From NCBI GenBank assembly GCA_038087875.1, contig CM075990.1, forward strand, positions 11,658,001-11,722,000: DNA of 64,000 nucleotides, in the 5' to 3' direction. Under the pieces are notes generated by a model that searched no databases, had not been told where the DNA came from, and saw only the letters and a program-made list of their open reading frames with translations. The translations under genes and the position numbers were made by a program. The DNA is from Malacoraja senta. Its lineage: Eukaryota. Of this stretch, positions 31,626 to 45,046 are shown one piece after another (position 1 is the first letter of the stretch; every line of letters starts with the position of its first letter).

Positions 31626-32596
31626 CCAGAGATGCTGCCTGGCCTGCTGATTTACTCCAGCACTTTGTGTCTTTTTTTTGTGTAAACCAGCATCTGTAGT
31701 TCCTTGTTTCTACACTTGTAAACAATTATGACCCAAAACATCACTTATCCATGTTCTCCAGAAATGTTGCCTGACTCGTTGTGTTACTCCAGCACTTTGC
31801 ACGTTCTTTGTTTGTAAACCAGCATCTGCAGTTCCTTGAGTCTACAGTTCACTTGCATTGGAGGAAGGCACCGACTTGCAGTTGTTGACACCCTGTTGAA
31901 GGAAGGGAACATTTTGCAGCCGTCACCCAAAGTGAAAAATCAATATGCCTTGGAGCTTTCCCACTTAGTACACAGAACCGGAGTAATGACTGAGATTTGA
32001 ATCCAATACAGTATCTAACTCTCTCTCGAAACATTCAGTAAATTGGCCTCCACTGCCTACTGTTGCAGAGAATTCCACAGATTCACAACTCTTTGGGTGA
32101 AAATGGTTTTCCTCATCTCAGTCTTAAATGCCTACCGCTTATTCTTAAACTGCGACCCCTGGTTCTGGACCCCCCCCACATCGAGAACATTTTTCCTGCA
32201 GTTCTGCTCAAGATTCTAGCATCTGCAGTCTCTTGTGTCTCGATCTTGCACTGTGTACCAGCCTTTTAGAGTCATAGATACATATCACAGAAACAGGCCC
32301 ACTGAGACCGCACGCCATCAATTACATTAAACCTTCATGAACCGCATTCTAATTGTCCCCTCCTTCCCCTCAGATCTCCTCAGATTCCTTCCCCGTCTAC
32401 ACATTAATGGCGATTTACGATGGTTGTCACGTCCAGAGGATGTGGGAGGAAACTGATGCACCGAGGAAGCTCACACGATCACTGTGAGAACGTGCAAACT
32501 CCGCACGGACAGCACCGGAGTTCAGGTTGAACCAAGGTCACTGCAGCTGTGAGGCAGCAGCTCTACTAGTTGTGCAATCTTGTAACCTTATCTCAA

Positions 32597-32890
32597 TGGC
32601 ACAGTGGTGCAGCGGTAGAGTTGCTGCCTTACAGCACCAGAGACCTGGGTTCAATCCTGACCATGGGTGCTGCCTGCCTGTACGGAGTTTGTACGTTCTC
32701 CCTGTGACCAGGTGGGTTTTCACCAGGTGCTTCAGTTTCCACCCGCACTCCAAAGACATTGAGGTTTGAAGGTTAATTGGCTTCTGTAAATTGTAAATTG
32801 CCCCTAGCGTGTAGGATGGCACTAGTGGTCAGGTTGATCGCTGGATGGCGCAGACTCGGTGGGCCGAAGAGCCTTCCTCGCTGTGTCTTT
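32597..32890 (+). mobile_element. V-SINE (HE1-like), head-to-head with a diverged copy at ~32280-32575 (-)
   Basis: Family structure. Confidence 0.8.
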
Positions 32891-42570: not shown

Positions 42571-44042
42571 ATACAGTAGTCCAGGTGTAGTTTCCTCGGC
42601 CATATATGATGGTAGTAAGATATTCTTAACCTTATGTTCAAAGTTATAATTGTAGTCAAATGTCCTTGCCCATGTACTCAGAAGCATCTTGCAATGAAGG
42701 CTGTTGTACCATTTGCGTTCTGTATTACCTGCTGCACTTGTATGTTATTCCAAGAATTGTGGACAAGTTCACTCCGATCTGCTTCTACATCAGCAGTTCC
42801 CACTCTTGTTGTTTAAAAAACAATTACACTCAGCATTTCTGTTGCTCTGTGATTAGATGGAACTTTCGACTGTAGATCAGTACAATGTTTCCACACTGTA
42901 TCTCTAAACCAAAGGGCTTCACAGTCGCTCTGCACAGCAGTGTTCTACAATCTCGCTCCATTTAAATACCTTTCTGCTTTTTCATTCTTACTCTCAGAGT
43001 GGATAACTTCACATTCCTCTCTGTTTTGTCCCTCCTTTTTAAATTTATTTCCTGGATTGTTCTATCTTGCTCTCAAAGTGCACTCTAAAATCTCCTTCAT
43101 CCATTCCTTATATCTCCCCATTTTCCATGGTATTTATAATTTATTCGCTTTGACTTTTATATTAAAATCATTATGTAAATGAAACTCATTGTTTATCTCA
43201 TTCAACACTTGCATACGGTGCCACCTATCGCCAAAGCTCTTGACTGGATTTCAAAGAAGTTTTGACTTGCGACCCTTGACCCTTGCCCTTCCGATAACCC
43301 TAAGCTTGACCCTGTCACCGACCATTTTCAGCACCCCCCCCCATGAATGGCCGGTGTACTCTGCTCAAGAGTTTGGTGGCTCCTTTGTTCTTCGTCAAGG
43401 CACAATCTTTTCTCTGCTTCAAAACCGAGATCACAGAACTCGTTGGAGGGAACTTTTCTTGAAAGATATCTTCTCACTGCAGGCAGGAAAGCAGAATGAA
43501 TTCTGTTCTTCTAAAAGGTTTGCAACAGCAGGACAAGGACCAGCCCTGCATGTTGGCACGAATCAAATCCTTTAATGATGCAATTATAGTTAATACTCTT
43601 TCCTGTCAAAGCCACAATGTTGCTCGCAGCCTTTGGAAAGAAAGTCGTTTTGTTCTCTTCGTGGGGTTTAAGAAACGCACGAAAGGAAACTAAAAGCTTT
43701 CATGTCATAATACTGAGACATCTCTGGGCTGTTTGAAACCAATGAATACTTTTGAATATCGATTTTCCAGCATCTGCAGTTCCTTCTTTAATACTTTTGA
43801 AGTGTCAGGTGGGGTTCTGCGGTTGTCAATTTGCTTCTAGCAAGGTGACGGCATGGTGTGGTAGTGGTAGAGTTGCTGCCTCACAGATCCATAGTCTATG
43901 GGTGCTGTCTGTATGGAGTTTGTACGTTCTCCCCATGACTTGCATGGATTTTCTCCTAGACCTTTGGTTTCCTCCCACACTCAAGTCGTACAGGTTTGTA
44001 GGGTAATTGGCTTGGTGGAAATAAAGTGGGGTGGATAGTGTT

Positions 44043-44230
44043 CTTCTTTCGAGTCCATCTTGTTACAAATGTTGACATCTCTGTCATTGTCCGTCCTGAA
44101 AAGGACGCAAGCTTCCGGCAACGATCAGTGGAAGCCACCACTTGTTACATTAGATGATGGTGCTAAAAGAATTAGCTCGGGATACTTCCAGTTTCCAGCC
44201 CCGCGACGTGGACACTTCTGCTATGGGGCC
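44043..44230 (-). mobile_element. Short non-autonomous retroelement: HDV-like ribozyme head, hairpins, GAA tail
   Basis: 11-bp TSD TGGATAGTGTT (44032-44042) / TGGATTGTGTT (44231-44241); minus strand ends ...GATGGACTCGAAAGAAG(AA). Confidence 0.75.
44164..44230 (-). ncRNA. HDV-like (CPEB3-like) self-cleaving ribozyme motif
   Basis: GGCCCC-A-UAGCAGAA-GUG-UCCACGU-CGC-GGGGCU-GG-AAACUGGAAGUAUCCCGA-GCUAA-UUCUUUUA: P1 (6 bp, G1.U), P2, P3, P1.1 (CC/GG), P4 and J4/2 with catalytic C at 44175. Confidence 0.8.
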
Positions 44231-45046
44231 TGGATTGTGTTGGTGAGTGGGGATCGCTGGTCTGTGTGGACTTGGTGGGCCGAAGAGCCTGTTTACCAGC
44301 TGTATCTCTAAACTAAAGGTCTTGCAAAATGGTAAGTGATGGATTTAATGATTCCGATGAGTGATGGGGAATTGAACACCAGAGGGCTAGTACTCGATTA
44401 AGCAGCAACCTGCCATGGCCCACACATTGAGGGACGAGCTTCTAGCCAGATGTTTGCACATTCATGGTATAAAACCAGAATTAAAAGGGAAACACAAAGC
44501 GCTGGAGCATGTCAGTGGGTCGGGCAGCATCCGCGGAGGGAACGGACATGCAATGTTTCGGGTTGGAGCTGACCCTCCTTCAGACCCCACCTGAACAATT
44601 GTCTGTCCATTCCCACCACAGATGCTGCCTTCATCAATTTGTGTTTTGCTCGATATTCCACAGTCTGCAGTTTCTTGTGTCTCTCACGGAATTAAACTCC
44701 AGCCTTCAGCTCTATTGAGATATGACTGCAATATAGCAATATCACTCTGCTATAGATAGTGCTTCCCCTGTGCTGGGGTTTAATAAATATTTGCAAGCAC
44801 AGAGCAACGCACTGTCAAATGTTTTGGGTAAACTGAGCACCCAGACTCTGCCATTTTCATTGAAGGAGCCATTCATCTCTTGCAGATTTGAGTACATTAG
44901 GCCATTTGTATTGAACAGGTATTGTACCATCTGCAGCTTTCCATACACAAGATCACATCTATTAATTCAGCACCTTTCTCAATGCATCCCATGCCTTTCA
45001 TATATTTCCACAAGGAAATATATTGCCCAAGTACATGAGCCAAGTA

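What the first reader, a model, noticed from the sequence alone, without database searches (positions are those of the whole stretch)
44032..44241. Ribozyme-headed mini-retroelement: 188-nt insertion starting exactly at G1 of an HDV-like ribozyme
Seen: a V-SINE is split by a 188-nt insert with an 11-bp TSD (one mismatch). On the minus strand the insert starts at 44230 with a nested double pseudoknot: P1 GGCCCC(44230-25)/GGGGCU(44202-197) with a G1.U pair; P2 UAGCAGAA/UUCUUUUA (one mismatch); P3 GUG/CGC; L3 UCCACGU whose CC pairs with the GG after P1 (P1.1); P4 GGA-AGUA-UCC; and J4/2 GCUAA as in antigenomic HDV. Hairpins follow (GCUUCC/GGAAGC, CGUCCU-UUUC-AGGACG), then a GAAAGAAG(AA) tail. There is no tRNA head, no Pol III boxes and no ORF. 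Known: HDV-like ribozymes form the 5' ends of R2, RTE and L1Tc retrotransposons, and short ribozyme-plus-3'-end derivatives exist in Drosophila (R2 SIDEs) and trypanosomatids. Inference: this is a non-autonomous element that cuts itself out of read-through transcripts and borrows a LINE RT (probably RTE, from the GAA tail). The TSD abutting the predicted cleavage site is the expected footprint. I do not know of such a family described in chondrichthyans.
Basis: partly seen in the sequence, partly recalled or inferred. Interest (0 to 1): 0.92.

Follow-up and report, generated by a model that had tools for sequence, protein, structure and literature searches.

The report
Ribozyme-headed mini retroelement family
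A 188-base non-coding jumping element, present in thousands of copies, begins exactly at the cut site of a self-cleaving RNA fold that closely resembles the mammalian CPEB3 ribozyme, which hints at where that ribozyme came from.

Summary
Window 44043-44230 (- strand) is a 188-nt insert in a SINE, with an 11-bp target-site duplication carrying one mismatch. Its first 67 nt fit an HDV-type double pseudoknot.

It is one copy of a family. A junction 23-mer occurs 755 times in the 1.94-Gb genome. In a 3'-anchored sample, 17 of 20 copies start at G1. Copies end in (AAG)n and carry 9-13-bp duplications that abut G1.

Rfam assigns the head to only one ribozyme family, CPEB3_ribozyme. The window copy scores 29.2 bits, below the cut-off of 35. 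Of 20 other copies, 12 pass.

At least five further families in this genome carry related heads. Across the six families, 12 of 22 base pairs covary. One family is a 3.1-kb RTE-like LINE. It starts at its own ribozyme G1 and ends in the same GACACGAAAAG(AAG)n as the main mini subfamily.

This is a new vertebrate variant of a known kind (ribozyme-headed RTE, R2 and L1Tc elements and their short derivatives).

Self-cleavage and expression were not tested. The boldest open reading is that the CPEB3 ribozyme, reported as unknown outside mammals, belongs to this retroelement-borne lineage.

The parts
44231..44241 (-). Upstream copy of the target-site duplication (AACACAATCCA). It abuts G1.
   Evidence: Scored (11 bp, 1 mismatch, offset 0).
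44164..44230 (-). 67-nt HDV-fold ribozyme head of CPEB3 type. P1 44230-25/44202-197. P2 44223-16/44171-64. P3 44215-13/44205-03. L3 44212-06. P1.1 44211-10/44196-95. P4 44189-87/44182-80. J4/2 GCUAA.
   Evidence: 29.2 bits, E 6.8e-5. P1 6/6, P2 7/8, P3 3/3, P1.1 2/2, P4 3/3. Covariation across families.
44175..44175 (-). Predicted catalytic cytosine (C56 of the element) in J4/2.
   Evidence: Present in 44 of 45 distinct copies; the exception is the truncated L070. The aligned column is at least 90% C across six families. Its role is inferred from the HDV fold and was not assayed.
44057..44163 (-). Non-coding body. In a near-consensus copy it folds into one long imperfect hairpin. It contains an internal TTTT (44102-44099).
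   Evidence: L029, MFE -40.1 kcal/mol, z -3.68, 0 of 200 shuffles as stable. No match to the LINE outside the two ends.
44043..44056 (-). 3' terminal motif GGACTCGAAAGAAG, with a minimal AAG tail. The larger subfamily has GGACACGAAAAGAAG, identical to the LINE terminus.
44032..44042 (-). Downstream copy of the target-site duplication (AACACTATCCA). The first AA could instead belong to the tail.
43844..44031 (+). Host SINE, 5' part. It has a tRNA-like head on the + strand and lies antisense to the insert. Ends are approximate.
   Evidence: Very high summed contig depth over 43732-44325.
44242..44318 (+). Host SINE, 3' part, ending in ...CTAAACTAAA. Ends are approximate.

Best explanation
The insert is one decayed copy of a non-autonomous non-LTR retroelement family of roughly a few thousand copies. 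Each unit has three parts: a 67-nt HDV-fold self-cleaving ribozyme of CPEB3 sequence type, a hairpin-forming body of about 108 nt, and a 3' terminus of 11-14 nt plus an (AAG)n tail.

Inferred life cycle. The element is transcribed as part of longer host transcripts, since it has no promoter of its own that I could find. The ribozyme cuts immediately 5' of G1, so the RNA begins exactly at G1. An RTE-like LINE reverse transcriptase recognises the short 3' terminus and AAG repeat and copies the RNA at a nicked target. Full-length copying up to G1 leaves a 9-13-bp target duplication that abuts G1.

Shown here: family structure, sharp 5' end, tails, duplications, covarying fold, and a LINE with the same kind of head and the same 3' end.

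Inferred only: catalysis, read-through transcription, and mobilisation by that LINE.
For: Copy number:
- 2045 first-look candidates; 40 of 40 scored are 90-100% identical.
- The junction 23-mer occurs 755 times, control 0.
- A 3' 23-mer occurs 333 times, control 0.

Sharp 5' end:
- 30 of 30 top loci begin at nt 1-2 with unrelated upstream flanks.
- Of the first 20 places listed for the 3' 23-mer, 14 align from nt 1 and 3 more start with GGCC at the flank boundary but carry internal deletions. Two lack the first 3-7 nt. One keeps only the last 62 nt.
- Contigs of four public runs that match the element stop at 44230/44231.

Duplications: 31 of 50 rows score at least 8 and end at G1, against 0.55% of 2000 mismatched-flank pairs. 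Six of the 50 rows are duplicates or near-duplicates of others.

Tails: (AAG)n of variable length.

Fold:
- 20 of 20 other copies hit Rfam CPEB3_ribozyme at E<=0.01, and 12 of 20 reach the cut-off of 35 bits.
- 29 of 45 distinct copies, including the window copy, keep G1, C56 and nearly all pairs by my criteria.
- Across 34 ribozymes of six families, 89.5% of cells pair, against 34-51% when partners are slid. 12 of 22 pairs change on both sides. 0 of 500 shuffles reach the covariation score.

Partner LINE:
- Length 3.12-3.14 kb. The ORF has RVT_1 and Exo_endo_phos domains.
- It starts at its own ribozyme G1 with 11-12-bp duplications in 3 of 3 full copies.
- The ORF end aligns to the C-terminus of a 995-aa homologue, leaving a 26-nt 3' UTR plus (AAG)n.
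- The mini majority sequence matches the LINE exactly over the terminal GACACGAAAAGAAGAAGA (E 2e-5) and 17 of 18 nt in the ribozyme core.
- 188 LINE 3' ends were found. 84 of the 100 listed carry ACACGAAAAGAAG.

Against Pol III transcription: no tRNA, no other RNA family, and an internal TTTT.
Against: - Cleavage was not assayed. No run on record as RNA holds the locus, so there are no transcript 5' ends.
- The window copy scores below Rfam's cut-off (29.2 against 35) and has a P2 mismatch.
- The LINE shares only the ribozyme core and the last 11-14 nt. The body has no LINE match.
- The window copy's subfamily ends GACTCGAAAG. No LINE 3' end with that variant was found (0 matches).
- Two searches for a LINE carrying the mini element's own ribozyme edge or 3' body found nothing. 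Their sensitivity is low: they need exact anchors plus five forced mismatches.
- All three LINE copies examined have interrupted frames.
- 19 of 50 rows did not reach my duplication threshold.
- The structure tested was derived from these same sequences, which inflates it relative to the slid controls.
Confidence: 0.85

Rival explanations
1. Same kind of element, but mobilised by a different LINE. The parent would be an unfound or extinct element carrying the identical ribozyme and 3' body, making the mini element an internal-deletion derivative like R2 SIDEs. The 3.1-kb LINE found here would then be only a relative.
For: - The head of the mini element differs from the LINE head in P1, P2 and P4.
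- Only 11-14 terminal nt are shared.
- The window copy's subfamily terminus has no LINE counterpart.
- Other ribozyme-headed families exist, so other partners are plausible.
Against: - Searches for the mini element's ribozyme edge or 3' body joined to unrelated sequence found 0.
- The larger subfamily's terminus is identical to that of 84 of 100 listed LINE ends.
- Both families are young: mini copies reach 99.5% identity to the majority sequence, and LINE copies are 97-98% alike.
Confidence: 0.2
2. The 5' end is set by transcription initiation from an internal promoter, as in L1Tc Pr77. The ribozyme-like fold would be a relic or serve another role such as RNA stability.
For: In L1Tc the same 77 nt act as both promoter and ribozyme (abstract of PMC3383444). 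No cleavage data exist here.
Against: Compensatory changes keep P1, P2, P3 and the base of P4 across six families, and the J4/2 C column is at least 90% conserved. That is what selection for the catalytic fold predicts. A promoter and a ribozyme are also not mutually exclusive.
Confidence: 0.07
3. An ordinary Pol III SINE whose head merely resembles a ribozyme.
For: It is short, non-coding, high in copy number, and has a LINE-like tail and duplications.
Against: No tRNA by ARAGORN. No tRNA, 5S or 7SL match in Rfam. The body contains an internal TTTT. The head matches a ribozyme model in 20 of 20 copies.
Confidence: 0.02
4. A retrozyme or deltavirus-like circular RNA element, or a chance structure.
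For: It has an HDV-type fold and a rod-like body.
Against: There is one ribozyme per unit. Copies are dispersed with duplications and AAG tails rather than arranged in tandem. There is no ORF. Chance is excluded by the E-values and covariation.
Confidence: 0.02

Closest known systems
HDV-like ribozymes at the 5' ends of RTE, R2, R4, baggins and L1Tc non-LTR retrotransposons (Ruminski et al. 2011, not held and recalled; passages in PMC6765202, PMC3774820 and PMC7761336 read)
   Same: The ribozyme's G1 is the first nucleotide of the element. The presumed role is release from a co-transcript. The LINE found here fits this description directly.
   Different: The published examples I could read about are insects, trypanosomatids and invertebrates. 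Here the host is a vertebrate genome, the ribozyme is of CPEB3 sequence type, and the subject is a 188-nt non-coding derivative.
Non-autonomous ribozyme-plus-3'-end derivatives: R2 SIDEs (PMC3414825) and NARTc of Trypanosoma cruzi (PMC3383444); abstracts seen in the listing
   Same: Short, non-coding, with a ribozyme at the 5' end and a LINE-recognised 3' end. Mobilised in trans.
   Different: SIDEs are internal deletions collinear with R2 and insert site-specifically in rDNA. Here the body has no LINE match, insertions are dispersed, and copies number in the thousands.
Mammalian CPEB3 intronic ribozyme (Rfam RF00622)
   Same: It is the only Rfam family hit. Identical runs cover P2, P3, L3 and J4/2. 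One sister family (C) is collinear with the Rfam consensus through P4 as well.
   Different: CPEB3 is a single conserved intronic locus in mammals. This is a dispersed mobile family. P1 is swapped by compensatory changes, P4 differs, and L3 has C where CPEB3 has U, which gives a 2-bp P1.1.
RTE-clade LINEs ending in simple-sequence repeats (Tay et al. 2010, PMC2887409, abstract read)
   Same: A single ORF with endonuclease and RT domains, a very short 3' UTR and a microsatellite tail. The tails seed microsatellites: the L016 tail has at least 14 AAG units.
   Different: That paper concerns Lepidoptera, and its abstract does not mention ribozymes.
Twister-variant ribozymes in Schistosoma non-LTR elements (PMC8501958, abstract seen in the listing) and hammerhead retrozymes (PMC7761336)
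   Same: A self-cleaving RNA as a working part of a retroelement, including non-autonomous ones.
   Different: They use a different ribozyme class. Retrozymes are tandem and form circular RNAs.

Membership tests
HDV-like (double-pseudoknot) self-cleaving ribozyme | Nested double pseudoknot: P1 starting at G1, P1.1, P2, P3 and (optionally) P4 in the canonical order | tested here: met
   by eye; window copy P1 6/6, P2 7/8, P3 3/3, P1.1 2/2, P4 3/3.
HDV-like (double-pseudoknot) self-cleaving ribozyme | Helices supported by compensatory change | tested here: met
   12 of 22 pairs change on both sides. 89.5% of cells pair, against 34-51% when slid. 0 of 500 shuffles reach the score. Caveat: the structure was derived from these sequences.
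HDV-like (double-pseudoknot) self-cleaving ribozyme | Catalytic C in J4/2 | tested here: met
   C at 44175. Present in 44 of 45 distinct copies. The aligned column is at least 90% C across families.
HDV-like (double-pseudoknot) self-cleaving ribozyme | Mg2+-dependent self-scission 5' of G1 | not testable with these tools
   No assay was possible, and no RNA run is on record.
Rfam CPEB3_ribozyme (RF00622) | Covariance-model score at or above the gathering score of 35 bits | tested here: inconclusive
   Window copy 29.2 bits, not met. 12 of 20 other copies meet it, up to 44.2 bits. Sister families score 43.7-64.2 bits.
Rfam CPEB3_ribozyme (RF00622) | Single orthologous locus in an intron of the mammalian CPEB3 gene | tested here: not met
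   Dispersed, with hundreds to thousands of copies. It is therefore a sequence relative, not an orthologue.
Non-autonomous non-LTR retroelement (LINE-dependent) | Many dispersed copies with defined ends, variable target-site duplications, a 3' repeat tail and no ORF | tested here: met
Non-autonomous non-LTR retroelement (LINE-dependent) | 3' end shared with an autonomous LINE of the same genome | tested here: met
   Exact terminal GACACGAAAAG(AAG)n for the larger subfamily. The window copy's subfamily differs at 2 of 14 positions, and no LINE with that variant was found.
Classical SINE (Pol III, tRNA/5S/7SL head) | Head derived from a Pol III gene with an internal promoter | tested here: not met
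   Internal TTTT.
SIDE-type internal-deletion derivative | Body collinear with the 5' and 3' parts of the parent LINE | tested here: not met
   Against the LINE found here, only the ribozyme core (17 of 18 nt) and the last 18 nt match. No other parent was found.
RTE clade (for the partner LINE) | Single ORF with endonuclease and RT, and a very short 3' UTR ending in simple repeats (as in the abstract of PMC2887409) | tested here: met
   26-nt 3' UTR plus (AAG)n, element about 3.13 kb.
RTE clade (for the partner LINE) | Phylogenetic placement of the RT among RTE references | not tested
   No labelled reference set was at hand. Homologues at 46-63% identity occur in amphioxus, echinoderms, fishes, a lizard and insects.

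The most novel reading that the evidence does not exclude
The mammalian CPEB3 ribozyme is not a mammal-only invention. It would be a domesticated 5' head of an RTE-like retroelement from a lineage that is still mobile in this fish-like genome. That lineage heads a 3.1-kb LINE and several families of mini elements, including the 188-nt family and a P4-less minimal form. These elements would supply the outgroups that ancestral reconstruction of the CPEB3 ribozyme has lacked.
Probability: 0.45. Interest if true: 0.85.

Novelty: new variant of a known kind. Interest (0 to 1): 0.78.

Why it matters
First, it extends ribozyme-headed retroelements to a high-copy, SINE-like family in a vertebrate genome. 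A 67-nt catalytic fold takes the place of the Pol III head that defines ordinary SINEs. This gives a compact natural system for asking how little RNA an RTE-type reverse transcriptase needs: a ribozyme, a hairpin and 11-14 terminal nt plus AAG repeats.

Second, the heads match the Rfam model of the CPEB3 ribozyme well above its cut-off. [quoted passage not shown] If the resemblance reflects descent, the origin of one of the few conserved human ribozymes becomes directly testable.

Third, the (AAG)n tails are a source of microsatellites.

Tried and rejected
- RNA evidence: no RNA holder listed. The four runs laid are contigs. They show no molecule starts and no contig that bridges an empty site, so neither expression nor presence or absence of the insertion in a relative could be judged.
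- Parent LINE with the mini element's own head or 3' body: two patterns with forced mismatches found 0. These tests are weak.
- A LINE 3' end with the GACTCGA variant: 0 matches.
- One search was my own mis-specified pattern (wrong spacer length). It gave 0 and means nothing. It was corrected.
- Family C queried with 399 nt gave only 4 candidates, with similarity ending near nt 95-102. I could not tell what these short old copies are.
- Earlier scan notes: nothing on this genome, this sequence or these words.
- Papers not held: Ruminski 2011, Webb and Luptak 2011, Webb 2009. What I say of them is recalled or taken from passages in other papers.
- Literature searches for shark, fish or CPEB3-like retroelement ribozymes found nothing relevant. 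The library lacks most subscription journals and Repbase or Dfam entries, so 'not in print' is not established.
- I considered a tree to place the LINE but dropped it for lack of labelled references.
- The LINE 3' UTR has no significant fold (z -0.10), so a shared 3' stem-loop is not the recognition signal.
Full report
**The observation**

Read on the - strand, a repeat is interrupted after AACACAATCCA (44241-44231). A 188-nt insert runs from GGCCCC at 44230 to ...GGACTCGAAAGAAG at 44043. The repeat then resumes with AACACTATCCA (44042-44032).
- P1 is 6 bp and includes the G1.U pair.
- P2 is 8 positions with one C.U mismatch.
- P3 is 3 bp.
- L3 is UCCACGU, and its CC faces the GG that follows P1.
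- P4 is GGA/UCC.
- J4/2 is GCUAA, with the C at 44175.

Rfam's cmscan reports CPEB3_ribozyme at 44165-44242 (-). It scores 29.2 bits against a gathering score of 35, with E 6.8e-5 in a 4-kb search and E 1.1e-3 over the whole window. No other ribozyme family appears in either search. ARAGORN finds no tRNA nearby. I recall the host repeat as a shark-type V-SINE but did not test that.

**It is a family with sharp ends**

The window's assembly is 1.94 Gb. A search with the 188 nt gave 2045 first-look candidates. All 40 that were scored are 90-100% identical over essentially the full length. In the 30 loci returned, homology starts at nt 1-2 in 30 of 30, and every upstream flank is different. Downstream, each copy ends in an (AAG)n tail of variable length.

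That sample is biased towards full-length copies, so I took a second one anchored at the 3' end. A 3' 23-mer occurs 333 times, control 0. I fetched the first 20 places listed:
- 14 align from nt 1.
- 3 more begin with GGCC at the flank boundary but carry internal deletions in the ribozyme.
- 2 lack or have lost the first 3-7 nt.
- 1 keeps only the last 62 nt.

So 17 of 20 start at G1.

A simple duplication score is the length of the match ending at G1 minus three per mismatch. It reaches 8 or more in 31 of 50 rows, against 0.55% of 2000 pairs with mismatched flanks. Six of the 50 rows are duplicates or near-duplicates of others: L010, L030, L068, L077, L079 and L080. Typical duplications are 9-13 bp.

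The 23-mer across the ribozyme/body junction occurs 755 times, control 0. With 2-8% divergence per site, that implies roughly two to five thousand copies. This figure is my inference. Copies are 91.5-99.5% identical to the majority sequence; the window copy, at 91.5%, is among the oldest.

There are two subfamilies. One is 188 nt and ends GGACTCGAAAGAAG; the window copy belongs to it. The larger one is 189 nt and ends GGACACGAAAAGAAG.

**The head is a covarying HDV-type fold of CPEB3 sequence type**

All 20 of 20 other copies hit CPEB3_ribozyme at E<=0.01. Twelve of the 20 reach the cut-off, the best at 44.2 bits. In most copies P2 is a perfect 8 bp; the window copy has decayed there. By my own loose criteria, 29 of 45 distinct copies, including the window copy, are structurally intact. 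The criteria were G1, C56, P1 at least 5/6, P2 at least 7/8, P3 3/3, P1.1 2/2 and P4 at least 2/3. They ignore L3 changes, so this is an upper estimate.

Searching the genome with the Rfam model itself gave a rough 102,231 first-look candidates. Of 59 scored, 51 had E<=1e-3 and 39 were over the cut-off, up to 64.2 bits. None of the 14 control genomes gave a hit.

The top hits are not the 188-nt family. They fall into at least five further families (A-E), each with unrelated sequence upstream of its G1.

I aligned 34 heads from the six families with MAFFT and counted pairs for P1, P2, P3 and the base of P4:
- 89.5% of cells form standard pairs, against 34-51% when the partners are slid by 1-3 columns.
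- 12 of 22 pairs show changes on both sides. For example, one P2 pair appears as U-A, A-U and C-G, and one P1 pair as A-U, G-C, G-U and C-G.
- 0 of 500 shuffles reach the covariation score.

The caveat is that the structure came from these sequences. The 16-nt core AGCGTYCACGTCGCGR occurs 1442 times, control 1.

**A partner LINE**

Family A is a LINE of 3.12-3.14 kb. Three full copies start at their own ribozyme G1 and carry 11-12-bp duplications. The longest frame is 940 aa and has RVT_1, Exo_endo_phos and Exo_endo_phos_2 domains. In another copy the frame runs on and aligns to the very C-terminus of a 995-aa homologue. That leaves a 26-nt 3' UTR followed by (AAG)n. Each of the three copies has an interrupted frame.

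This architecture matches the description of RTE elements in the abstract of PMC2887409. Homologues at 46-63% identity occur in amphioxus, sea urchins, a starfish, teleosts, Anolis, Lepidoptera, psyllids and crabs. I did not place the LINE in a tree.

Against the LINE, the mini majority sequence matches in only two places. One is the exact 3' terminus GACACGAAAAGAAGAAGA (E 2e-5). The other is 17 of 18 nt of the ribozyme core.

I found 188 LINE 3' ends, and 84 of the 100 listed carry ACACGAAAAGAAG. No LINE end with the window subfamily's GACTCGA variant exists as an exact match. I also found no LINE with the mini element's own ribozyme edge or 3' body (these are weak tests).

**The rest of the unit**

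In a near-consensus copy, the body folds into one long imperfect hairpin: -40.1 kcal/mol, z -3.68, with 0 of 200 shuffles as stable. This leaves the terminal 13 nt single-stranded. The LINE's last 122 nt show no significant fold (z -0.10). The body contains TTTT, which, with the lack of any Pol III-type head, argues against Pol III transcription.

**Mechanism**

The best reading is the one known for RTE, R2 and L1Tc elements (passages in PMC6765202, PMC3774820 and PMC7761336):
1. Transcription proceeds from outside the element.
2. Self-cleavage 5' of G1 sets the RNA 5' end.
3. Target-primed reverse transcription is primed on the AAG repeat and short terminus by the LINE enzyme.
4. Full-length copying places the duplication against G1.

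Only the genomic footprints are shown here. Catalysis, transcription and the identity of the helper are inferred.

**Comparison with what is known**

Ribozyme-headed LINEs and their short derivatives (R2 SIDEs, NARTc) are established, so the kind is known. Three things differ here:
- the vertebrate host;
- the high copy number of a dispersed, SINE-like form whose body is unrelated to the LINE;
- the sequence type of the ribozyme.

Family C is collinear with the Rfam CPEB3 consensus through P1, P2, P3, P4 and J4/2. In L042, cmscan marks 49 of 67 positions as identical, and I count 54 by eye. The 188-nt family shares the same P2 sequence.

[quoted passage not shown] PMC3774820 warns that active-site similarity among HDV-like ribozymes can be convergent. 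Identity in P2 and P4, which are free to vary among the families here, argues for descent but does not prove it.

My searches of the held library found no report of such elements in cartilaginous or other fishes, nor of CPEB3-like ribozymes in retroelements. Subscription journals and repeat databases were not covered.

**Verdict**

This is a new variant of a known kind. Its open extension, a retroelement origin for the CPEB3 ribozyme, would interest ribozyme and transposon specialists alike.

Noticed in passing
L031-L034, L036, L037, L040, L041, L047, L050; L061:99-3234: A 3.1-kb RTE-like LINE headed by a CPEB3-type ribozyme (up to 64.2 bits on RF00622). Copies are 97-98% alike, so the family is young. 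The three copies read each have an interrupted frame.
   Followed up: yes
L051, L053, L057-L060 (from base 1501 of each, oriented): A second mini family of about 175 nt. Its ribozyme lacks P4 altogether (a minimal HDV-like form) and begins with a G1-C rather than a G1.U pair. It ends GGACTCGATAAGAAG, with duplications that abut G1 in at least four copies.
   Followed up: partly
L042, L044, L046, L052, L055: Old, low-copy family C. Its head is the closest to the Rfam CPEB3 consensus, including P4. Similarity between copies ends about 30-35 nt after the ribozyme. Only 4 candidates were found genome-wide. What these elements are is unexplained.
   Followed up: partly
L035, L039, L043 and L045, L048, L054, L056: Two more ribozyme-headed families: B, with a long P4, and D. 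Copies resemble each other for only about 100-135 nt. Neither a partner nor the 3' ends were determined.
   Followed up: no
L041, about 30 nt upstream of the LINE G1: The LINE copy is preceded by extra partial copies of the ribozyme core (GTAGAAGCGTTCACGTCGCGATC... repeated). This may be a template-switch product at the 5' junction.
   Followed up: no
L016 / L080 downstream of the element: The AAG tail has grown to at least 14 units, which illustrates microsatellite seeding by these elements.
   Followed up: no
window 32528-32653, both strands; also L020:197-283: A long perfect-hairpin repeat gives weak, sub-threshold hits to miRNA families (mir-1756 at 37-46 bits against a cut-off of 100). 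It is probably an inverted-repeat transposon rather than a miRNA gene.
   Followed up: no
L009/L010, L029/L030, L067/L068, L078/L079: Pairs of copies share the same flanks at different coordinates. They are either segmental duplications or uncollapsed haplotypes in the assembly, and they inflate raw copy counts slightly.
   Followed up: no
window 43732-43839 and 44488-44703: These stretches have very high summed contig depth in all DNA runs. They are other high-copy repeats flanking the SINE, so the locus is a nest of repeats.
   Followed up: no
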